Of a stretch of DNA of 24,936 nucleotides, positions 713-18,029 are shown piece after piece. The stretch covers positions 1 to 24,936 of the IMG/VR virus record IMGVR_UViG_3300032318_001091; one strand, written 5' to 3'. A program made the translations under genes and the position numbers. Source of the DNA: a virus. Lineage: Duplodnaviria; Caudoviricetes. The notes under the pieces are model-generated. The model made no database searches. It saw only the letters and a list, made by a program, of their open reading frames with translations, and was not told where the DNA came from. How positions within the stretch are numbered: the stretch's first letter is position 1; the number at the start of each line of letters is the position of its first letter.

Positions 713-1269
713 TGACGCTTAACTCTTCAGGGCCAATCAGTCTGGGTGGCAGCACTGCGGGGCAGTCTATCAACCTTGAACTGAGTAAATCCGCTACCGC
801 GCAGGTCTCGCTGAACGACACCGATGTCCGCACACTCGCGGGCGTTGCGTCCGGCGCTATCATCGTGCCGACCAACTTCTACGGCAAGAGCGCGGTCACC
901 ATCACCCTGAGCAACCAGAGTATAGCTGATTTTACCGGCGGTGGCAGCACCGCACAGGCGGGCTATCAACTTACCTCGGCTGGTGCAGCAAACGAGATTG
1001 TTGGCGCTTCAACGAACTTCTTGGAAACATGGTGCTCGCCCAGCGCCCAAGCCGTAAACTATGAGGTGTTCGTGACCGCAACTGGTTCGCCCCTCACCAT
1101 AGGCTTCCTAAACGTGTGGAGAGCCTTATCTAGCACAGAGACTTGGCGACTTGATGCAGGTATAGGTCAGAATTTAGTCGCAACATTATCGGTGACTGTG
1201 CGGCGCGTGGGCACAACTTCTCCCACCTATAGCGCGACTATAGACCTCAACGCGGATGCGAGCTTCTAA
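712..1269 (+). CDS. Putative fibre-tip adhesin / receptor-binding protein (gp38-like N-terminal attachment module plus variable beta-rich C-terminus)
   Basis: TAATG coupling to the fibre gene. N-terminal MTLNSSGPISL...INLEL...SLND..VRTLAG...FYGKS resembles the module commonly found downstream of S74-bearing fibres. C-terminus is beta-strand rich. Confidence 0.6.
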   Translation: MTLNSSGPISLGGSTAGQSINLELSKSATAQVSLNDTDVRTLAGVASGAIIVPTNFYGKSAVTITLSNQSIADFTGGGSTAQAGYQLTSAGAANEIVGASTNFLETWCSPSAQAVNYEVFVTATGSPLTIGFLNVWRALSSTETWRLDAGIGQNLVATLSVTVRRVGTTSPTYSATIDLNADASF

Positions 1270-3044
1270 TGGCCGAAAAAATCGTACAGATACGCTCTGC
1301 CCCCGGCATCAAGCGCGACGGCACCAAGTTCGAGGGCGACCAGTACGTCGACGGGCAGTGGGTCCGTTTCCAGCGTGGGCTGCCGCGTAAGATTGGCGGC
1401 TATCGCTCAATCAACAAGTTCCTACGTGGCTTGCCGCGTGCCCTGCATGAATACACGCAGGACTTGCAGACGTACGTCCATGCAGGCTCGGCTGACCGCC
1501 TCGAACGCTTCTTCATCGACGGCACATATAACACGAGCGTTATAACTGACCGCACACCCTCGTCGGGCTTTACGGCTGCCGATGGCAACCTGTGGCAGTT
1601 CGCCACGGCGTACGACACGACGAACGGCAACCAGATTGTCGCACAAGTCGCGCCAAACCTGAACTGCATCTGCAACAGCGACGGCGGCGCGCTCTTCGTC
1701 GGCGACCTCCTCGGCACGAGCGCCCTGACGCAAGTTACCGCAGTACCCGCCAACTTCAGCGTCACTGGTGGCGTTGTCACGCTGCCGCCCTACACGTTTG
1801 CCTTCGGCAACGACGGATATGCGGCGTGGTCCGTGCCGAACGACCCAGCGGACTTTACCGGCTCCGGCGCAGGCAATGCCTACATCACAGGCCAGAAAAT
1901 CGTCAAAGGCATGCCACTGCGCGGCGGCCCCGGCAACAGTCCGTCGGGCCTTTTCTGGTCGGCGGACAGCCTCATTCGTGGCACTTACGTCGGCGGCACG
2001 GCGGTGTTTCAGTTCGACACTATCAGCACGCAGTCGTCAATCCTGTCGTCCGCGTCCGTCATCGAGTATGACGGCATCTTCTACTGGATTGGCACCGACC
2101 GCTTCTTGATGTTCAACGGCGTCGTTCGTGAGGTCGAGAACAATCTAAACATCAACTTCTTCTTCGACAACCTGAACTATGCGCAACGCCAGAAGGTGTT
2201 TGCGTATAAGGTTCCGCGCTTCGGCGAGATATGGTGGTGCTTCCCGTTCGGCGACAGCCTCGAACCGAACCACGCCGTCATTTACAACGTCCGCGAGAAC
2301 ACATGGTACGACACCGAATTGCCCAATGGCGGTCGTGGAGCGGGTCTCTTCCCTGCCGTATTCAGTAAGCCGCTCCTGTCTGGCGTTGAGCCGCAAGAGG
2401 CCGAGGCCGTTGCGGCTGCTGTGGCCGCAGGCGGCACAGGTTACGCCGTAGGCAACACGCTCACCGTTGTGGGCGGTCTGGGCCAGATTGACACGGAGTT
2501 GACAGTCACGACCATCGGTGGTGGTGGCGCTATCACTGGCGTCTCTATCAGCAATGCGGGGCAGTATACCGAGATACCAACCAATCCCGTTAGCGTGACT
2601 GGCGGGGCGGGCAGTGCGGCTACGTTCAACCTGACTTTCGACAACCCGTACAAGTTCTGGGTTCACGAGGTCGGCACGGACGAAATCGACGGCCTGACGC
2701 TGAACCCGATACAGTCGTTCTTCGAGACTGCCGACCTGTCCTTGCCTGCCACGTCGCAAATCAACAAGGCGCTGCAGGTGGTTATGCTTGAGCCTGACTT
2801 CGTGCAGAGCGGCGACATGACGGTGCAGGTTATGGGCCGTGCGAACGCCCGTGCGCCTGAAGTCAACGGCATTATCATGACGTTTGTGGAAGACCCGCAG
2901 ACGCCGCAAGAGCAGGTTGTCTTCCTCAAGACACAACGTCGCGAGCTGCGCTTCCGCTTCGAGAGCAACACTCTCGGTGGCAATTATCAAATGGGCCTCG
3001 TGCTTGCGCACGTTCAGCCGGGTGATGGGACGACACTGGGATGA
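1269..3044 (+). CDS. Podovirus tail hub/nozzle (P22 gp10-like DNA stabilisation protein)
   Basis: 591 aa, beta/aromatic rich. N-terminal PGIKRDGT...YVDGQWVRF..G.P.KIGG and FGEIWWCFP...VIYNVRENTWY are patterns typical of this class. Lies directly before the putative ejection genes. Confidence 0.7.
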   Translation: MAEKIVQIRSAPGIKRDGTKFEGDQYVDGQWVRFQRGLPRKIGGYRSINKFLRGLPRALHEYTQDLQTYVHAGSADRLERFFIDGTYNTSVITDRTPSSGFTAADGNLWQFATAYDTTNGNQIVAQVAPNLNCICNSDGGALFVGDLLGTSALTQVTAVPANFSVTGGVVTLPPYTFAFGNDGYAAWSVPNDPADFTGSGAGNAYITGQKIVKGMPLRGGPGNSPSGLFWSADSLIRGTYVGGTAVFQFDTISTQSSILSSASVIEYDGIFYWIGTDRFLMFNGVVREVENNLNINFFFDNLNYAQRQKVFAYKVPRFGEIWWCFPFGDSLEPNHAVIYNVRENTWYDTELPNGGRGAGLFPAVFSKPLLSGVEPQEAEAVAAAVAAGGTGYAVGNTLTVVGGLGQIDTELTVTTIGGGGAITGVSISNAGQYTEIPTNPVSVTGGAGSAATFNLTFDNPYKFWVHEVGTDEIDGLTLNPIQSFFETADLSLPATSQINKALQVVMLEPDFVQSGDMTVQVMGRANARAPEVNGIIMTFVEDPQTPQEQVVFLKTQRRELRFRFESNTLGGNYQMGLVLAHVQPGDGTTLG

Positions 3045-3277
3045 TAGACCCTCGCGGCATGACTTGGCAAGATTGGGCCAGTTCAGTTATACTGTCGGTC
3101 AACGACGCGTGGGCGTTCGGCACGCCTCCCGCAGAGGCCGAGTGGCAAGGCTGGGCTATAGGGCTGTTGCGTGCCTCGCCATTCGCACAACAAATTATTC
3201 CCGACCCATATCAGTTCTCGGATTGGCGTGAGTGGGGTATGCGTGTATACCCGATGCTCGAAGGTAAAAGCTCATGA
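3041..3277 (+). CDS. Small Trp-rich virion-module protein (78 aa)
   Basis: ATGA overlaps at both ends; 7 Trp including three WxxW motifs (WQDW, WQGW, WREW). Confidence 0.75.
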   Translation: MIDPRGMTWQDWASSVILSVNDAWAFGTPPAEAEWQGWAIGLLRASPFAQQIIPDPYQFSDWREWGMRVYPMLEGKSS

Positions 3278-5709
3278 ACTACATCCCCGGCTTCAGTAAC
3301 TATTTACAGGCGGCTGTGCCTCGCTACGCCCGAGGGGGCGAGGTCATGAACGACATGGAGTTCAGTGATTTCGGCGTAGGCGGCCCGATGCTTGGCGCAG
3401 AAACCGTCGGCTTCGATATTGCAAACGCTTTGCTTGGTGGTCCTGAGCAAGGCGGTTCGTACACTGGCGGTATGGGTGGTGGCTCTAGCCGGACAGAAGC
3501 AGAGCGCCAACAAGCGATATTGGATGTAAATCCTTACGTCGCGCCTAGCCAAGGTGTAAATCCTAACCCAATTACAAGTCAGCGAAGTGGCGGACAGACT
3601 GGCTATTATTTTGCGAACGAACTGGGTTTGCCTGCGCGCTACGATGACGTTGGCTTGCCGCAACCGGCTGACCCCACCACGTTCGACCCAAATGCTAAAT
3701 ACGCTGCGTCCGCGCCGGGCTTTGTACCCGTTGACCAAAACGCCACATATCGCCTTGTCAACGGCGGCACAGGCGGCAGCGTCGTTTACGCTGGCGCGGG
3801 TGAAGAAGGTCTGCGCAATGTATTCCAACAAGCCAACAAACTTACTTTGGACGACCCCAAAAATGCTTACTGGGGTGTAGAAGTTCTCGACCCAGCCACA
3901 GGCCAATACAAGCGCGTCGCCGAGAACCAAGGCCCGAACGGCCTCGGCATCGTTGGCGACATCGCAGGCGTTGCGCTGCCTATCGCCGCAGCCATCGCAA
4001 CTGGCGGCGCAAGCCTTGGTGTTCAGATAGCTGCGGGCGCTGCGGCAGGTGGCCTTGGAGGGTTTCTGTCGGGGCAAGACCCGCTAAAGTCTGCCCTACT
4101 CGCTGGCGCTACGGCTGGCCTCGGAAACGTGTCGGGCTTTAATGAGGCCGTTGGAGGCGCGCTTAGTAATGCGGGCAACGCTGTTAAAAACGCGTTGATA
4201 CCAGAAGTTGCTAAGCAGGCAGCGGCCGAAGCGGGCGGCGATATTGTGGTTACTGGCCTCAGTAATCTTGCAAAGGGTTTAGGGGCCGGTGCGCTTCAAG
4301 GGGCAGCGTCAGGCGTATCTAACAGTTTAAGCGACATCACTGGCTACAAAACGCCAGCCGAGAAGTTTGTGCAACAACCAACGCCGGAAACATCTCAGCT
4401 ACCGGCAGATAACACCATTGTCGTTAGTGGAAGCAGGGCTACGTCCGCTGCGCCGAATTACGGCGGTGCGCTGTCGGGCGTGTTCGAGCCTATAGCCACC
4501 GACTTTTTACCAAAGGGCGGTTTGCCTGAATTTCTGCCGTCGGAACCAACACCCATATCGGAACCCACGCCAGTTGACGACACCATCGTTGTCAGTGCTG
4601 ACAGGTTCACGCCGAGTTCGGGGTCGCCGTTCGCAGCCGCGTTCCCTATCCCCGTAAACGCAATGCTTTCAGGAGAGTTGGCCGCAGCACAGCCCGCGCC
4701 AACAGAACAACCCACAACACAAGAGCCAGTCGACGAAATCCTCGTCGAGGCGCGCAAGTCTTTCCTCCCGCCCGAGACGTTGGCTGCGGTACCTCTTATC
4801 GGTGGCCTTGCCGCTGCTACGACGGGTGGCGCTGCCGCACCTAACGTCGTCAACGGCATCGACCAGACCACAGGCGACATCGTCGTCGAGGCCACTCCGA
4901 AGTCAGTAGCCGCACCTCCGCCGATAGCGGGCATTGAGACGGTTATGCCTGCGATAACGCAAGGCGCGCTAACGCCAGCGCAGACAACCTCCACGCCAGA
5001 GGCTGACGTTGAGAAGAAGCTCGGCATCAAGGATTACATAGACATCGCCACTCTACTCGCAGGGCTAATACCCGGTGCCAGTGGCGGTGGCGGGGGTGGC
5101 TCCGGTGGCAAGATACCTACAGGCATGGGCGCTCTTAGCTCGCTCTTCAGCAAGCAACTGCCCACATCAACGCTGCCGAGCGGCGGTGCGCTTCCTGCGA
5201 CCACACTCGCCGCGCAGGGCTTGCGCAGCCCGCAAGATTACTACCGCTATGGCTACGGCCCAGAGCAGAGCTTCTTCAGCTACGCCACACAGGGCGCACC
5301 GAACACCAGCCGCGCGTACACTGGCTATGAAGGCTCAACGGCAGAAGATATGTTCGCGGCACAGCCGTCGCGTCTGCCGCAGCCAATCACGACGCCTATC
5401 CCAGACGAACCTAGCGGCCCTTCGATGTACTTGCCAGACACAACGCGTTTCGCACAAGGCGGTTACGCCGTCGAGGGTGCTGGTGACGGTCGCGACGACA
5501 AAATTCCCGCGCTCCTGTCCGATGGTGAGTACGTCATCGACGCGGAGACCGTGGCGCTACTCGGCAACGGGTCGAACAAAGCAGGCGCGGAGTTGCTCGA
5601 CAGCTTCCGCGTCAAAGTCCGCAAGCAGAAGGGCAAGAAGCTTGCTCGCGGTGAATTTAGTGATAACGCAAAAAGGCCCGAGCATTACATGGCCGGAGGA
5701 AAATCATGA
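3274..5709 (+). CDS. Putative ejected/internal virion protein with Gly/Ala hydrophobic segments and five TonB-box-like repeats
   Basis: 811 aa of low-complexity G/A/P/T sequence. Glycine-zipper-like hydrophobic stretch at about nt 3940-4125; repeats GDIVVTG, NTIVVSGSR, DTIVVSA, DEILVEARK, GDIVVEA; C-terminal GDGRDDKIPALLSDGEYVI virion-protein motif. Confidence 0.7.
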   Translation: MNYIPGFSNYLQAAVPRYARGGEVMNDMEFSDFGVGGPMLGAETVGFDIANALLGGPEQGGSYTGGMGGGSSRTEAERQQAILDVNPYVAPSQGVNPNPITSQRSGGQTGYYFANELGLPARYDDVGLPQPADPTTFDPNAKYAASAPGFVPVDQNATYRLVNGGTGGSVVYAGAGEEGLRNVFQQANKLTLDDPKNAYWGVEVLDPATGQYKRVAENQGPNGLGIVGDIAGVALPIAAAIATGGASLGVQIAAGAAAGGLGGFLSGQDPLKSALLAGATAGLGNVSGFNEAVGGALSNAGNAVKNALIPEVAKQAAAEAGGDIVVTGLSNLAKGLGAGALQGAASGVSNSLSDITGYKTPAEKFVQQPTPETSQLPADNTIVVSGSRATSAAPNYGGALSGVFEPIATDFLPKGGLPEFLPSEPTPISEPTPVDDTIVVSADRFTPSSGSPFAAAFPIPVNAMLSGELAAAQPAPTEQPTTQEPVDEILVEARKSFLPPETLAAVPLIGGLAAATTGGAAAPNVVNGIDQTTGDIVVEATPKSVAAPPPIAGIETVMPAITQGALTPAQTTSTPEADVEKKLGIKDYIDIATLLAGLIPGASGGGGGGSGGKIPTGMGALSSLFSKQLPTSTLPSGGALPATTLAAQGLRSPQDYYRYGYGPEQSFFSYATQGAPNTSRAYTGYEGSTAEDMFAAQPSRLPQPITTPIPDEPSGPSMYLPDTTRFAQGGYAVEGAGDGRDDKIPALLSDGEYVIDAETVALLGNGSNKAGAELLDSFRVKVRKQKGKKLARGEFSDNAKRPEHYMAGGKS

Positions 5710-7109
5710 CAAGCATGGGAAATTACCAAAGAACACCGCTGACGGCCGCTCAGACAGAAATGCTTATGAAGCAAACGCAAGCGCAAGCGCAAGCGGGGCC
5801 TCCTTCACGCCCGTTTGCGGTTAATTCCGGTCTGGACAGTATTGGCGCGGGGATGCCTTTTACCGATGCGCAGCGGCAACAGTTTTTGGATAATTTCCAG
5901 CCTAAAGCGGGCGCGGACATGTACAAGCCGAATATCAGTGGAGGCCCAATGATGGAAGGTACTACGGGGGCCGCGCCAACAATGAACTCTGAGACCCCTA
6001 TGCAGGGTGATGCCCCGAGGGGCGGCAGCAATCCCACCTCGACACCATCGTCCTCGCCTAACTTCGCTTCGTTCCTTAACAACGGGCAGTTGCCTGCTGG
6101 TTCGACATTCACGTCGAAGACTAGCGAGACCGTGCTTCCCGACTGGTACACGAACTACGCCATGCAATTGCTGTCGAACCAGCAAGCACTCGCCGCGCAG
6201 CCAATGCCGACGTATCAAGGCCCGCGCGTAGCGGAGTTTTCGCCGACAATGCAGCAAGGCTTCAACATGACAGGCCAAGCGGCTACGGCGTACCAGCCCG
6301 CGCTGAACGCCGCCACACAGGCAACGCAGGGTGCAATCAACGCACCGGGCGGTCTCGCCACCGCGCAGCCGTTCTTGACGCAAGCAGGCCAGAGCAGCGT
6401 GTCCAACATCGGCCAGTACATGAACCCATACACCGACCAAGTAGTCAACCGTATCGCCGAACTCGGCACGCGCAACTTGCGTGAGAGCATCATGCCCGAA
6501 ATCGAGGGCCGCTACATCAAGGCCGGTCAGCTCGGCTTCGGTGGCCGTGGCGGTCTAGGTGGCACGCCGTCGGGCATGATGACAGACACATCACGCGCCG
6601 TTCGCGATGTCAGCGCAGACATTCTCGCCCAACAGGCGAAAGCTCTTCAGTCTGGTTACACCGAAGCCGCAGGGCTTGCGGGCACCGACCTCGCACGCCA
6701 AGCTGCCCTTGCCTCAACGGCAGGCACCCTCGGCGGACAGGACATATCCCGTCAACTTGCTGGCGCAGGACAACTCGGTGAATTGGGCGAGAGGGCACAG
6801 ACACTCGGCCTTACTGGCGCAGGCGCACTGCAGCAGGTCGGCGCTACACAGCAGGGTCAAGCGCAGAAGAACCTCGATGTCGCATACAGCGACTTCCTGC
6901 GTCAGCAGGGCTACCCACAGGAGCAGATTAATGCTATGCTCCAGACGTTCGGTGGTGTCAAAGCTGGTGTTCCGACGGCTGCTAGGGAAGAAGGCATCGT
7001 GCCGCTCGGCTACCAGCCAGACCTGAAGCCCAGCACGGCTGAGACGGTAGGCGGCACGCTGGCCACATTGGCTGGCATACTGTCTAAAGCGGGTGCCTTC
7101 GGCAAGTAG
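5706..7109 (+). CDS. Putative DNA ejection/pilot protein
   Basis: 467 aa, Q/A/G rich and helical. YMNPY and YSDFLRQQGYP motifs and a hydrophobic Gly-rich C-terminal tail are typical of podovirus ejection proteins. SD GGAGG at 5694-5699. Confidence 0.7.
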   Translation: MTSMGNYQRTPLTAAQTEMLMKQTQAQAQAGPPSRPFAVNSGLDSIGAGMPFTDAQRQQFLDNFQPKAGADMYKPNISGGPMMEGTTGAAPTMNSETPMQGDAPRGGSNPTSTPSSSPNFASFLNNGQLPAGSTFTSKTSETVLPDWYTNYAMQLLSNQQALAAQPMPTYQGPRVAEFSPTMQQGFNMTGQAATAYQPALNAATQATQGAINAPGGLATAQPFLTQAGQSSVSNIGQYMNPYTDQVVNRIAELGTRNLRESIMPEIEGRYIKAGQLGFGGRGGLGGTPSGMMTDTSRAVRDVSADILAQQAKALQSGYTEAAGLAGTDLARQAALASTAGTLGGQDISRQLAGAGQLGELGERAQTLGLTGAGALQQVGATQQGQAQKNLDVAYSDFLRQQGYPQEQINAMLQTFGGVKAGVPTAAREEGIVPLGYQPDLKPSTAETVGGTLATLAGILSKAGAFGK

Positions 7110-10800: not shown

Positions 10801-11117
10801 ACCCAGTAGAGAGCCTCGCTTACGAGATGGGCGGCTCGATGTTGCCAGCACTCGTGCCCGGTGGACAGGCTGTCACAGCAGGCCGCATGGCGTCTCTGGC
10901 AGCACGCGCACCGCGCGCAGCGATGGCGGTGCGTCGTGCAGCCCCAGTGGCAGGCAGCGCAGCGCTTTACGGCGCAGGGGCCGCTGACAGCATGTCCGAC
11001 ATTCCACGCTCCATGGCGGAGGAGGCCGCTTTCGGCCTCGGTCTGTACGGCGCAGGAAATCTGGCTGCGCGGCCAGCTAAAGCGGGGTATCGCAAAGTGC
11101 GGAGCATATTTCGGTGA
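7830..11117 (+). CDS. Large putative DNA transfer/ejection protein (1095 aa)
   Basis: Large Ala-rich helical protein with TGGALGAVSDKELSLL and several hydrophobic Gly/Ala segments; position matches the largest ejection protein of podoviruses. Confidence 0.65.
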   Translation: MATGAPPPTFDEFTPRKNVPAERKEAAQEATTATSRANVNRVETLLPLQVKELEGKIEKGQIDREAARIKLDASRKRIADRPSPEKLDEARNAIMVELKNAIEAKKLSRDMFGASGIGYTTTSLYSGSPASSVNSLLEPIFANTAFNRLQKMRVESPTGGALGAVSDKELSLLKSSEAAMDPSAGDKVFQSGLDTVIGNRIDMLMKLGADPLELARIIPPEDLPTYKDKFRAYRFLEEDVAAMNKYLNETRKNGTYDPADFAELMGQAYYNATGRAPNEDFLGSAFETGIKYGEKPDATLNAFDYAAADEDIQKRLGSTAYTGDDGLTWGETLGGAALNFVPSTFELAYDTVYALTLGLPDTLEGVADIVGGATGLSDDPSSYEALKKYYSDRYGSVEGFKKALQTDPASIMADVAGVLTGGATILAKTGSVASKVSKISALSNAAKAAETFGTYAAKIDPLNTAAALTGAGVKTATRAAEAAAVDVPARFAGTTPEAVKQGFEAGKRGSETFKEFASGAGDITEPLNKAEKALGELYQQRSADYTRRMSRLKKSDETLAFDDVEKAIEGVRKVGRHKGIDISAAADVWDEVDGKYMEFLDKGLNSIEDFDAMKRAIKTIGSKYQPGTPQFKVANDVSKAINDVIVAKAPVYADIMKDYRQASDVLTDVKATLSLGAASPDTALNKLRRNAEGRTARGRTVLDLLEQTPSGKGIGDMLAGAALSSDTATGAGAGLTAPAAMVSGSPEVLTASMVTPKSLGEKAYQMGQVYGPAERAISSFAQNQKVQAAADLAKKYGPQGMEALRVVNPALIQPQMNPAPTVETFTAEEQPTPEGYIAQFPVADMAAPDALRLEKFYGAPEAEGLNLEAFRAPQPAIGGPAPTAGTVMIGDREAQLGEDGRFYFTDTGESAEVEEEQGYARGGLAQAPIALRKGGSPSFADRARSVAKGATFAFNDEMEAALRALAQMDPAAYRREVSRIRAQQAAYEEGNPVESLAYEMGGSMLPALVPGGQAVTAGRMASLAARAPRAAMAVRRAAPVAGSAALYGAGAADSMSDIPRSMAEEAAFGLGLYGAGNLAARPAKAGYRKVRSIFR

Positions 11118-12742
11118 GCCGCATAAAGCGCCTTCTCGCAGCCGCGTCGAAATACATTCCTGACGACATCGAGAAGCCTATGCGCAACGCGCTTGGCTTG
11201 TCGAAGCCTGCGAAAACCGCACGTAAAACCGCCAAGAAGAAAAAGCCAAAAGCGGCTCCAGAAAAGCCAAAGTTCTCGGTAAAAGAAGAAGGCCCGTTCT
11301 TGCGCGTCAATCGCGAAGGCGCGAAGCGCCGCACCATCCCAGAGGCGCGCGTAGCAAAAGACATCCAAGAAATCCGCGCAATCCTGCAAGACCCATCTAA
11401 GAACATCCCGGCGCAGGCCGCTGACGAGTACACGCGCGCCGCCCTCGGTCGTGGCTATGATGTCAACGCCACACCGCCACGCACCTCCCTCGAGAAGCAG
11501 AGCGGCATCGCCCGTGTCTTCCAAGAGGCCGTCGAAGGCTCACCCGAGTATAAGCAGCGCCTGTTCGAGGCGTATGGCAACGCCATGCCAGAGGTGGTCG
11601 AGCAGGCAGGCGCGCAGAATTACGACCAACTGACCGAGGCCGCGTATCGCCAACTGGCGGACGAGACGCGCGCCCAGTTCGAGACGCTTCCCGTCCAGAC
11701 GTCGTACAGCTACGGCGCAGGTGCGTACGCAACGCCAAGCGACATGCTGCGTGACGTACTCGGTGAAGGCAACCTCAACGTCTTCAAGGGCGGCGAGCCG
11801 CACGAGTTTTTGAACGAAGTCGACCCAGATACTAGCCTTACCGCAAACGAGATGTTCCGCGCCGCGCATGACTTCTATGGGCACGGCACGCAGGGCGCTA
11901 CCTTCCGCCCCGGTGGTGAGGAGATTGCGTACGCTTCGCACAGCCAGATGATGTCGCCGCTGGCGCAGATGGCCTTGCTGTCCGAAACGCGTGGCCAGAA
12001 CAGCCTCGTCAACTACTCGCCGCTCAACGTGGACATAATCAGCGAGATGCGCGCAATCCAACGCCGGATTGACGAAGAGAAGAAGCTTCTCGGTTTCAGG
12101 GGCGAGAAGCCTCGGCCCGGTCAGTTCGACGACGAGAACGCTCGCTTGCGCGAGCTTGGCGCGATGTTCGAGTACGCGCCGCAGAAGGGGCTGTTGTTGC
12201 CCCCAGAGTATCTCGACGTAAACACCACAGGCGGCGTTCCAGAGTATCTGCGCGACGTCATTAAGGCGCGCGCACCGACTGGCCCCGAGCGTGCCGTCCA
12301 CTTGAGCCACACGGAAGGTCTATCGGCCACTGACCCTGCGTTTTACGGCACAGGGCATCGCGGCGATGATTACGCTACGCGCGGAAGGAAAGGCAGCCCA
12401 GCGCAGCACACCAGCTTCTACATGGGTCCAGAAGGCACCGTTATCCCAGAAAAGTATGTCGAGGACGTTAGCCCGTATGCGTACGAGACCGAGCTGTCCG
12501 GCCTTTACGACATAACCAAAGACCCTGAAAACTTGATGGCGCTGGCGCGCGCATATACCGAACTAAAAGACAAGACCCCCTTCCCAGATTTCAACCGCAT
12601 GGTGCGTGAGTACGGGTATGCTGGCTATAAAAACAAGTTCGGCCCACAGGACGCGGCCAACGTGTTCGACGTAACCAAGCTACAGCGCCCCATCAAGAAA
12701 GGCCCACGCGGCTACGACGAAGGCGGTACCGTCGAAGCTTAA
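11114..12742 (+). CDS. Multidomain putative injected effector: Lys-rich N-terminus, HDxxGH metallopeptidase-like domain, possible ADP-ribosyltransferase-like C-terminal domain
   Basis: GTGA overlap with the upstream gene. KPAKTARKTAKKKKPK; NEMFRAAHDFYGH (HDFYGH at 11867-11884)...GEE...ETRGQNS; C-terminal VHLS...DP..YGTG...SFY...GYAGY. The ORF is solid; domain calls are tentative. Confidence 0.55.
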   Translation: MSRIKRLLAAASKYIPDDIEKPMRNALGLSKPAKTARKTAKKKKPKAAPEKPKFSVKEEGPFLRVNREGAKRRTIPEARVAKDIQEIRAILQDPSKNIPAQAADEYTRAALGRGYDVNATPPRTSLEKQSGIARVFQEAVEGSPEYKQRLFEAYGNAMPEVVEQAGAQNYDQLTEAAYRQLADETRAQFETLPVQTSYSYGAGAYATPSDMLRDVLGEGNLNVFKGGEPHEFLNEVDPDTSLTANEMFRAAHDFYGHGTQGATFRPGGEEIAYASHSQMMSPLAQMALLSETRGQNSLVNYSPLNVDIISEMRAIQRRIDEEKKLLGFRGEKPRPGQFDDENARLRELGAMFEYAPQKGLLLPPEYLDVNTTGGVPEYLRDVIKARAPTGPERAVHLSHTEGLSATDPAFYGTGHRGDDYATRGRKGSPAQHTSFYMGPEGTVIPEKYVEDVSPYAYETELSGLYDITKDPENLMALARAYTELKDKTPFPDFNRMVREYGYAGYKNKFGPQDAANVFDVTKLQRPIKKGPRGYDEGGTVEA

Positions 12743-14118: not shown

Positions 14119-14404
14119 GTTTACCGTTTCTTATCTTGAACACGATTTCGTCGATTTCTTCGTTCGTGCGCGCGACGTAGACAGGGACGCCAGACGTTCG
14201 CATGCGTTCAATCTCGCGGTCCTGTATCTTGCTGACCCGGTCGCCGAACGCCTTTATCTCGATGAAGGCGGCGTTGGGCCAGTCCCACCACACAAAGCAG
14301 TCTGGGCAGCCGTTACGGCCCTCCCAGCGCACCTTCCGGTAATGACCCCCACTCTTCTGCACAACGTGCTTGAGATGGTCCTGTAGGCGTCCTGCGGGCG
14401 TCAC
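14102..14404 (-). CDS. VRR-NUC domain nuclease
   Basis: PD-(D/E)xK pattern GCPD...FIEIK...Q in 100 aa, in the usual position next to the SNF2 helicase. Confidence 0.88.
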   Translation of the reverse strand: MTPAGRLQDHLKHVVQKSGGHYRKVRWEGRNGCPDCFVWWDWPNAAFIEIKAFGDRVSKIQDREIERMRTSGVPVYVARTNEEIDEIVFKIRNGKHDTDI

Positions 14405-14970
14405 AAACGCTCAAATATGGTGATTACACGGAAGCGGTGATTTGTTGATTTCACCATGCCGATGACGCCAACAATCCGCCACTCGTCTTTGCGATACATT
14501 GGTAGCACTTGGTCGAGCCAGATGACTGGCGTGCCAGAGTGAACGCCTGTCAACGCTTTGAGCACCTTGTTGCGCTTGACCATCGTCGGTTTGTAGTGTT
14601 CCGCGTCTTCTACACTATACGGCGGGTCTGCCAAAACAATGTCGTATTGCGAGAGAGGCACGTTTTCTAGCGATTGGGCGTCATCCAGATATGTTGGCTC
14701 CATGTCGGGATTGAGGTCGACGGTGTCGCCCGGCCAAGCGGACTGGTCAACGCGGCCCGAAAATACGTGCAAAGCCTTATCCTTGTCGGGGTATAGCGCT
14801 TTGATGCGTTTTAGGTAGCCATGCGGGTAGCCGCCGTAATAGCCGCTCTGCACGCCGTAGGCGTTGCCCATAATCCAAGTGCCGACAATGCGGCCATCTT
14901 CGGAGATAAACAGCGAACGGGGGAAGCCCGTCACCTTTGTGTAATTGTCGATACGGTCCTGTAAGTTCAT
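14401..14970 (-). CDS. Small amino-(N6-A/N4-C) methyltransferase-like protein
   Basis: SAM-binding motif I-like LHVFSG, then TVDLN, DDAQ and catalytic motif IV DIVLADPPY; SD AGGAAG upstream. Confidence 0.72.
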   Translation of the reverse strand: MNLQDRIDNYTKVTGFPRSLFISEDGRIVGTWIMGNAYGVQSGYYGGYPHGYLKRIKALYPDKDKALHVFSGRVDQSAWPGDTVDLNPDMEPTYLDDAQSLENVPLSQYDIVLADPPYSVEDAEHYKPTMVKRNKVLKALTGVHSGTPVIWLDQVLPMYRKDEWRIVGVIGMVKSTNHRFRVITIFERL

Positions 14971-17765: not shown

Positions 17766-18029
17766 CTAAAGCAAGTCCATGCCAAGCGCAGATTTATATG
17801 TGTCGAGGATGGCTTCCATCTCGGCACGGTCGTCCTTGGTCATTTTGCGGAGTGCCACAATCTGACGCATAGCTTTGGCGTCGTAACCGTTGGCCTTCGC
17901 CTCGCTGTAGACGTCGCGGATGTCGTCGGCGACGCCCTTCTTTTCTTCCTCGAGACGCTCGATGCGCTCAATGAAAAGCCGAAGCTGCTCCGCCGTCGGA
18001 TTTACCGCGTTGTGACCGATGTCGCTCAC
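17766..18029 (-). CDS. gapR: GapR-family (DUF2312/UPF0335) nucleoid-associated protein
   Basis: [50 protein letters not shown]...[10 protein letters not shown] closely matches the alphaproteobacterial GapR consensus. Confidence 0.93.

What the first reader, a model, noticed from the sequence alone, without database searches (positions are those of the whole stretch)
4237..4893. Putative phage ejection protein with five evenly spaced TonB-box-like motifs: a possible TonB-powered import ratchet
Seen: the 811-aa protein has five copies of (D/N/G)-(D/T/E)-I-(V/L)-V-(T/S/E)-(G/A). They are GDIVVTG (aa 322, nt 4237), NTIVVSGSR (aa 380, nt 4411), DTIVVSADR (aa 436, nt 4579), DEILVEARK (aa 487, nt 4732) and GDIVVEA (aa 534, nt 4873), spaced 58, 56, 51 and 47 aa apart. 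Most are preceded by a Pro/Thr/Gln/Ala linker and followed by a short Gly/Ala hydrophobic stretch. The intervening sequence has diverged while the motif is kept. Known: TonB boxes read DTLVVTA (BtuB), DTIVVTA (FepA) and typically E/D-IVVT-GSR/ARK in Caulobacter/Sphingomonas transporters; group B colicins use their own TonB box to be pulled across the outer membrane. Inference: about 50 extended residues span roughly 18-20 nm, near periplasm width, so successive boxes could let host TonB-ExbBD pull the ejected protein in stepwise. Known TonB-dependent phages (T1, phi80) rely on the receptor's box; I know of no virion protein with its own array. Alternative: the array is a TonB decoy that blocks superinfection or nutrient uptake.
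Basis: partly seen in the sequence, partly recalled or inferred. Interest (0 to 1): 0.93.

Follow-up and report, generated by a model that had tools for sequence, protein, structure and literature searches.

The report
Phage protein carrying host TonB handles
A likely injected protein of an uncultured phage carries five copies of a short peptide that matches the handle by which bacterial outer-membrane transporters grip the TonB motor, and the copies' spelling shifts between phage groups to match that of their likely hosts, so these phages probably borrow the host motor during entry, though binding is untested.

Summary
Confirmed. The 811-aa ORF (3274-5709) has five motifs at aa 322/380/436/487/534. 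Against a profile of 53 real TonB boxes they rank 1-5 of 7,907 windows in 29 window proteins, and no shuffle comes close. They sit in a region predicted to be disordered, not a beta-repeat fold, and 117 of 120 homologues keep at least one while the linkers diverge. The motif's spelling follows host lineage: Sphingorhabdus-type in this family, whose GapR gene independently points to that host family; Caulobacter-type in cultured Caulobacter phage RW; Steroidobacteraceae-type in a third clade. Median spacing is 52 aa, close to TonB's published 50-60 aa pull, but it is shorter (median 40) near RW, so a fixed-period ratchet is not shown. Best reading: an ejected protein offers TonB-ExbBD repeated handholds during entry. 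Four literature searches found no description. This scan noted the same array on at least six other genomes.

The parts
3274..5709 (+). 811-aa putative internal (ejected) virion protein carrying the array
   Evidence: ORF; 634 homologues at E<=0.001 among 8000 candidates scored; no Pfam or NCBIfam family; first large gene after the nozzle and 78-aa genes in most related loci, and in Caulobacter phage RW
3493..3939 (+). Predicted folded alpha/beta domain, aa 74-222; function unknown
   Evidence: pLDDT block means 78-94 over aa 91-120 and 151-220; no clear fold match, best Z 6.0 for this part
3940..4233 (+). Gly/Ala-rich helices, aa 223-320, with one hydrophobic 19-mer (aa 224-242); candidate membrane-inserting segment
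   Evidence: Helices in model; hydropathy 2.03; 47% Gly+Ala; membrane role is inference
4237..4263 (+). Box 1, GDIVVTGLS (aa 322)
   Evidence: (score 10.6)
4411..4437 (+). Box 2, NTIVVSGSR (aa 380)
   Evidence: score 12.2
4579..4605 (+). Box 3, DTIVVSADR (aa 436)
   Evidence: (score 8.8)
4732..4758 (+). Box 4, DEILVEARK (aa 487)
   Evidence: score 18.2; the one box of five that does not score best on the Sphingorhabdus profile
4873..4899 (+). Box 5, GDIVVEATP (aa 534)
   Evidence: score 9.8
5434..5706 (+). Conserved C-terminal domain (aa 721-811) starting at an FAQGG motif, shared with tape-measure proteins; last 40 residues basic
   Evidence: phrog_6090 tape measure E 2e-7; PDB 8ZDO tape measure gp16 E 1e-6; 11 K/R against 5 D/E in aa 772-811
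1269..3044 (+). 591-aa tail nozzle/hub-like protein upstream
   Evidence: phrog_3287 E 1e-35; profile matches nozzle chains of PDB 8ZKK/8ZKM, E 3e-14
5706..7109 (+). 467-aa DNA-ejection-like protein directly downstream
   Evidence: phrog_4287 'DNA ejection protein' E 2.7e-9
17766..18029 (-). GapR-like gene, used as an independent host clue
   Evidence: PF10073 E 1.5e-35; median best identity 72% in the Sphingorhabdus MAG's family (41 of 41 genomes) against 53% in the Caulobacter MAG's family (40 of 41)

Best explanation
The 811-aa protein is likely an internal virion protein ejected at infection, and its five motifs are likely working mimics of the host's TonB box that would let the TonB-ExbBD motor grip and pull the protein across the cell envelope. 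Shown: the motifs, their match to real transporter boxes, their retention in homologues, their host-lineage spelling and their gene context. Predicted: a disordered setting. Inferred: (1) the protein is packed in the head and leaves through the short tail; (2) once in the periplasm each motif adds a beta-strand to the TonB C-terminal domain; (3) the motor pulls, and further boxes within about one pull length give fresh handholds, so a 220-residue linker and the parts behind it (a hydrophobic helix about 50 aa after the last box and the tape-measure-like C-terminal domain) are drawn in. The spacing looks like a loose range rather than a fixed ruler.
For: Profile from 53 transporter boxes ranks the five motifs 1-5 of 7,907 windows. 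Hits are confined to this protein class: 2.46 per 1000 aa in 93 orthologues against 0-0.18 in neighbouring structural proteins, including the nozzle-like protein. Arg/Lys at +6, outside the search pattern, occurs in 104 of 168 non-box-1 motifs against a 4.6% background, and in 54 of 79 real boxes. Spelling follows host lineage: Ile opens 28 of 28 Sphingorhabdus boxes and 190 of 194 motifs in this family, but only 8 of 24 Caulobacter boxes and 10 of 57 motifs in the 15 proteins nearest RW gp66; 40 of those 57 score best on the Caulobacter profile; Leu at -3 marks 24 of 27 Steroidobacteraceae-type boxes and 36 of 47 motifs in a third phage clade. RW's host is C. vibrioides, and the window's GapR points to the Sphingorhabdus MAG's family. 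Region aa 285-570 is almost wholly below pLDDT 50 and the five motifs form no sheet together. Gap median 52 aa, 85% of 317 gaps within 30-65, 1% under 30; last box to next helix median 48 aa, n=51; TonB removes about 50-60 aa of plug (PMC12927319) and 20 nm equals 50 aa (PMC5413942). The module lies in virion gene blocks of two different phage types.
Against: The phage motifs score 8.8-18.2, in the lower half of real boxes (leave-one-out median 21.2, 10th percentile 6.4). Gaps near RW have median 40 and run down to 15-25 aa, and 13% of gaps in this family exceed 70 aa. Bacteriocins ten times longer than a plug segment are imported with one N-terminal box, so an array is not needed for long import. 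Fifteen distant orthologues have at most three weak matches in total, and four close ones carry only degenerate forms, so the family can work without clear boxes. TonB-box activity depends more on local structure than on side chains (PMC11658791), which leaves the strong spelling match partly unexplained and allows another partner. Homologues are related and partly fragmentary, so counts are not independent. Host profiles come from one or two MAGs per lineage.
Confidence: 0.57

Rival explanations
1. The motifs bind TonB but serve as multivalent docking points: they moor the ejected channel to inner-membrane TonB-ExbBD complexes, as filamentous-phage G3p docks on TolA, without stepwise pulling.
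For: All sequence evidence for mimicry applies. Copy number is mostly 2-7 and spacing differs between clades. A single box binds TonB only at micromolar strength (9.4 uM; PMC5413942), so several copies would add avidity. G3p binds TolA by strand addition (PMC4339652).
Against: Does not explain why only 1% of gaps in this family are under 30 aa, or why the last box is about 48 aa from the next helix.
Confidence: 0.17
2. The array is a TonB decoy that ties up the motor and blocks TonB-dependent superinfecting phages, bacteriocins or nutrient uptake.
For: Mimicry evidence fits; an array would titrate several TonB molecules.
Against: No hydrophobic 19-residue window occurs before aa 224, so no signal peptide is apparent and a protein made in the cytoplasm would not reach TonB's periplasmic domain; only the virion-delivered copies could act. 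The gene lies in virion gene blocks.
Confidence: 0.08
3. The motifs are beta-strands with another job: binding a different host acceptor such as TolA, stacking between ejected subunits, or marking packaging or maturation-cleavage sites.
For: Strand addition is promiscuous (PMC4339652). Box 1 is embedded between helices in a conserved setting. Degenerate forms persist in some homologues.
Against: A phage-internal role does not predict spelling that tracks host transporter boxes in three lineages, or the +6 Arg/Lys. A separate xAxGG motif is a better candidate for a processing or packaging signal.
Confidence: 0.16
4. The motifs are a chance or compositional feature of a low-complexity linker.
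For: The region is Ala/Pro/Gly/Thr-rich and expands by internal duplication.
Against: 0 of 5000 and 0 of 1000 shuffles approach five copies; amino acids are kept while codons vary; neighbours lack them.
Confidence: 0.02

Closest known systems
TonB box of TonB-dependent outer-membrane transporters (Plug, PF07715)
   Same: Same short acidic-hydrophobic motif with small residues and a basic residue after it; many homologue motifs are letter for letter like Sphingorhabdus transporter boxes.
   Different: Five copies in mid-protein, no plug or barrel (no PF07715 in the genome record), no apparent signal peptide, viral.
Ton-dependent bacteriocins (group B colicins, pyocin S2, klebicin C)
   Same: A foreign protein shows its own TonB box in a disordered segment and is pulled in by TonB-ExbBD (PMC12927319, passages and section 17).
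   Different: Those have one box near the N-terminus, plus receptor-binding and killing domains; this is a phage structural-module protein with an internal array and no recognised toxin domain.
Filamentous phage G3p/pIII binding to TolA
   Same: A virion protein engages a proton-driven periplasmic force transducer by beta-strand addition (PMC4339652, passages).
   Different: G3p uses one folded domain and the Tol system; here linear repeats copy the Ton handle in a tailed phage.
TonB-dependent phages T1 and phi80
   Same: Infection would depend on TonB and proton-motive force (PMC11658791, passages and section 9).
   Different: There the box belongs to the host receptor FhuA; here the boxes are phage-encoded.
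Podophage ejection proteins (P22 gp7/gp20/gp16, T7 gp14-16)
   Same: Gene block after the nozzle/hub, neighbour annotated as DNA ejection protein, Gly-rich hydrophobic helices, largely unstructured.
   Different: No sequence match to solved ejection proteins; the review PMC8954989 has no occurrence of 'TonB' in its main text.
Caulobacter phage RW group (proposed Riverwalkvirus: RW, RLK, KcrB, GB2A), gp66
   Same: Same gene order, 41% identity over the C-terminal part, five box-like motifs.
   Different: Caulobacter-type spelling and shorter gaps; annotated as hypothetical or tape measure; PMC11053796 has no occurrence of 'TonB'.

Membership tests
TonB box | Sequence matches boxes of real transporters | tested here: met
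   Ranks 1-5 of 7,907 windows; scores 8.8-18.2, inside but in the lower half of the real-box range
TonB box | Lies in an extended, accessible segment | tested here: met
   Predicted only: pLDDT below 50 over almost all of aa 285-570, coil apart from a short hairpin at aa 525-536
TonB box | Binds the TonB C-terminal domain by beta-strand addition | not tested
TonB box | Box mutations abolish Ton-dependent function | not testable with these tools
   Needs phage and host genetics
TonB-dependent transporter | Box followed by plug domain and 22-strand barrel | tested here: not met
   No PF07715 in the record, no Pfam family on the protein
Ton-dependent bacteriocin | Single box near the N-terminus | tested here: not met
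   Five boxes at aa 322-534
Ton-dependent bacteriocin | Receptor-binding and killing domains with an immunity gene | tested here: inconclusive
   No Pfam, NCBIfam or PDB sequence match; the aa 74-222 domain is unassigned
Podophage ejection protein | Encoded in the block after the tail nozzle/hub, beside other ejection genes | tested here: met
Podophage ejection protein | Homology to a characterised ejection protein | tested here: inconclusive
   No PDB match for the family profile; only the C-terminal segment matches tape-measure proteins
Podophage ejection protein | Present in the head and released into the cell | not testable with these tools
   Needs virion proteomics or structure

The most novel reading that the evidence does not exclude
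A widespread group of short-tailed phages powers entry with the host's TonB-ExbBD motor through a phage-encoded ratchet: boxes set about one motor stroke apart and tuned to each host lineage's TonB let the motor haul the pilot protein, and with it perhaps the channel or the leading DNA end, across the envelope.
Probability: 0.35. Interest if true: 0.95.

Novelty: new variant of a known kind. Interest (0 to 1): 0.85.

Why it matters
It would give tailed phages a direct, self-encoded link to a host force-generating motor, an energy source for protein and genome entry that my searches did not find described for ejection proteins. It would also supply a natural multi-box substrate for an open question stated in PMC12927319: how a motor that moves 50-60 residues imports much longer chains. 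The test is within reach because phage RW grows on C. vibrioides CB15. The host-matched spelling could also serve as a host-prediction mark for uncultured phages.

Tried and rejected
Fold searches of the whole model gave only family members in the viral library and no Z of 8 or more among 48,161 solved chains. The Atlas search of aa 310-560 gave three unnamed viral clusters under 0.8. A single-sequence model of the 467-aa neighbour was too poor to use (mean pLDDT 41). Search for prophage copies: the 41 genome-collection hits of the nozzle protein are contigs binned into very diverse MAGs, so their labels were not used as hosts; the portal of the second phage type matched 13 of 401 genomes at only 27-31% identity; the best DNA matches in 401 genomes were the GapR-like gene and one binned contig (278 weaker matches were not listed). 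Betaproteobacterial transporter N-termini were inspected but not built into a profile. A DNA-level tandem repeat was rejected. A self-contained beta-repeat fold was not predicted. The original RW paper (PMC9391073) is not held, so RW's short-tailed shape is inferred from gene content. Literature searches: 'TonB box'+phage+ejection, 5 papers; 'TonB box'/'phage-encoded'/'TonB-dependent phage', 0; TonB/ExbB/phage/'genome injection'/'TonB box' from 2021, 21; 'ejection protein'/TonB/podophage from 2020, 30 of 40 listed. No listing described phage-encoded boxes. Two broader searches returned no listed paper holding the TonB-box term. Most subscription papers are outside the library.

Full report
Setting. 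The window is a 24.9-kb virus record, 43% complete by the tool's estimate. The + strand carries a tail-fibre end with an S74 chaperone, then genes of 185, 591, 78, 811, 467, 244, 1095 and 542 aa; the - strand carries helicase, family A polymerase, exonuclease and primase-helicase. The 591-aa protein matches phrog_3287 and, as a profile, solved nozzle chains (E 3e-14). The 467-aa protein matches phrog_4287, 'DNA ejection protein' (E 2.7e-9). In P22 the hub gp10 templates a channel of internal proteins gp7, gp20 and gp16 (bioRxiv 10.64898/2026.09.03.749273, abstract and introduction). The same gene order is found in cultured Caulobacter phages RW, RLK, KcrB and GB2A. I infer a short-tailed phage with the 811-aa gene heading its ejection block.

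The observation. None of 5000 shuffles gave more than two. The codons differ at silent positions among the five copies and among orthologous boxes in 12-14 genes, where 30-71% of same-residue pairs in the five core positions use different codons (these were anchored on the motif, so core identity itself is not a test). AlphaFold2 with 56 sequences gives a confident small domain within aa 74-222, helices at aa 225-333, and low-confidence coil through the array.

Match to real boxes. I took transporter N-termini from a Sphingorhabdus MAG (28 of 28 plug matches) and a Caulobacter MAG (27 of 28; one truncated locus was left out, two gave no motif). Boxes were picked by a short pattern within 40 residues of the plug; 20 of 28 and 15 of 25 lie exactly 10 residues before it. 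One Caulobacter-set pick (L175) was a wrong stretch; it stayed in the profile and was dropped from the profiles of later calls. The five motifs rank first to fifth of 7,907 windows in 29 window proteins (8.8-18.2; next 7.5). Real boxes score higher on average (leave-one-out median 21.2). In related loci, hits occur at 2.46 per 1000 aa in 93 distinct orthologues and at 0-0.18 in five neighbouring gene classes. Arg/Lys at +6, not part of the pattern, is in 104 of 168 motifs other than box 1, against 4.6% background, and in 54 of 79 real boxes.

Conservation. Of the 120 listed homologues (of 634 found; the query is one of them), 106 have at least one strict match and 117 at least one by a phage-derived profile, mostly three to five. 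The profile gave 0.12 hits per shuffled protein. Four close homologues have only degenerate forms. Some relatives show recent duplications of 35-50-aa units, each with one motif. Fifteen distant orthologues, in two groups on a nozzle-protein tree of 67 sequences, have three weak matches in total.

Host-matched spelling. Adding 27 boxes from 30 loci of two Steroidobacteraceae-type MAGs (two of these picks lie 31 residues off and are probably wrong) gave three profiles that assign 64 of 79 real boxes to their own group when left out. Sphingorhabdus boxes open with Ile (28 of 28) and have no fixed residue at -3. Caulobacter boxes have Val at -3 (19 of 24). The third set has Leu at -3 (24 of 27). 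The phages follow suit. In this family 190 of 194 distinct motifs open with Ile and 154 score best on the Sphingorhabdus profile. In the 15 proteins closest to RW gp66, 10 of 57 open with Ile and 40 score best on the Caulobacter profile. In four RW-like loci 11 of 15 have Val at -3, and in a third clade of ten loci 36 of 47 have Leu. Two of the three links have outside support: RW grows on C. vibrioides (PMC11053796, passages and section 13), and the window's GapR gene is a median 72% identical to genes in the Sphingorhabdus MAG's family against 53% in the Caulobacter MAG's family. The third clade's host is unknown. In the window itself four of five boxes score best on the Sphingorhabdus profile. 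Motifs within a clade share ancestry, so these counts are not independent events.

Spacing. In this family the 317 gaps have median 52, quartiles 46-57, 85% within 30-65, 1% below 30 and 13% above 70. The last box lies a median 48 aa before the next helix motif in the 51 of 120 homologues where both were found. TonB dislodges about 50-60 residues of plug (PMC12927319, passages and first part of section 17), measured as 20 nm or 50 residues for BtuB (PMC5413942, passages). Against a strict ratchet, RW's gaps are 36, 25, 15 and 44, the RW-near median is 40, and the same review says one box suffices for bacteriocins ten times longer.

A second phage type. Ten viral loci without the nozzle gene upstream (L001-L005, L014, L023-L025, L028) hold a relative that shares the N-terminal part and two or three boxes (36-70% identity). 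In the five such loci printed (L001, L003, L014, L025, L026) it sits between a portal-like gene and scaffold or major-head-like genes, confirmed by PHROG for L001, and the two sequences printed in full lack the C-terminal domain. This supports a head-internal location and shows the module moving between phage types with its boxes.

Mechanism. TonB's C-terminal domain is periplasmic and binds boxes by beta-strand addition (PMC11658791, passages and section 9). The protein has no hydrophobic segment before aa 224, so it would meet TonB only by being ejected from a virion. I therefore favour ejection, binding and motor-driven pulling with repeated handholds (0.57) over docking without pulling (0.17), a non-TonB role (0.16), a decoy (0.08) and chance (0.02). 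TonB binding in some form totals about 0.8. None of these steps has been shown.

Relation to known systems. It works like Ton-dependent bacteriocins, which show their own box, and like filamentous-phage G3p, which binds TolA by strand addition (PMC4339652, passages). It is not a member of either group or of the transporters. The searches listed under Tried and rejected found no paper describing phage-encoded TonB boxes; the ejection-protein review PMC8954989 and the RW-group paper do not contain the word TonB in their main text. PMC10743462 holds the terms only in its references. Supplements were not read, and most subscription papers are outside the library. The scan's earlier notes report the same array on at least six other genomes; these are unchecked and were not counted as support.

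Verdict. A real, selected, host-tuned array of TonB-box look-alikes in a probable ejection protein, testable in a cultured phage. New variant of a known kind; interest 0.85.

Noticed in passing
window 17766-18029 (-): GapR-like DNA-binding gene (PF10073), up to 83% identical to host-family genes; phage RW has a distant counterpart (L031 24499-24738).
   Followed up: yes
L001:5582-8329, L003:3716-6607, L014:3720-5363, L025:5528-7699, L026:9692-11410: The box-bearing module occurs in a second phage type between portal and scaffold/major head genes; L025 and L026 also carry a recombinase-like gene (by eye) before the terminase.
   Followed up: partly
window, aa 18 and 726 of the 811-aa, aa 919 and 931 of the 1095-aa, aa 534 of the 542-aa protein: A short xAxGG-type motif recurs in these three protein classes (1.0-1.8 per 1000 aa against 0.08-0.21 in neighbours) and opens the tape-measure-like segment; possible processing or packaging signal.
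   Followed up: partly
window 14401-14970 (-): 189-aa ORF with a DPPY motif typical of amino-methyltransferases (recalled); no Pfam or NCBIfam match.
   Followed up: no
window 1269-3044, aa 378-459: The nozzle-like protein has an insertion matching head-decoration family phrog_9703 that is missing from shorter orthologues of about 510-540 aa.
   Followed up: no
P0004 and P0110, C-terminal part: An extra domain of about 100 aa is inserted between two xAxGG motifs just before the tape-measure-like segment.
   Followed up: no
L083:6523-9798: An orthologue with long Glu/Ala/Lys helical repeats, each ending in an INVTGG-like motif in place of typical boxes.
   Followed up: no
L032:7128-10435: A distant relative has a ketoacyl-ACP synthase gene before the orthologue, which is unusually Cys-rich.
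   Followed up: no
window 11114-12742 (+): 542-aa protein of unknown function (phrog_3170) closing the virion block, found in only a few related loci.
   Followed up: no
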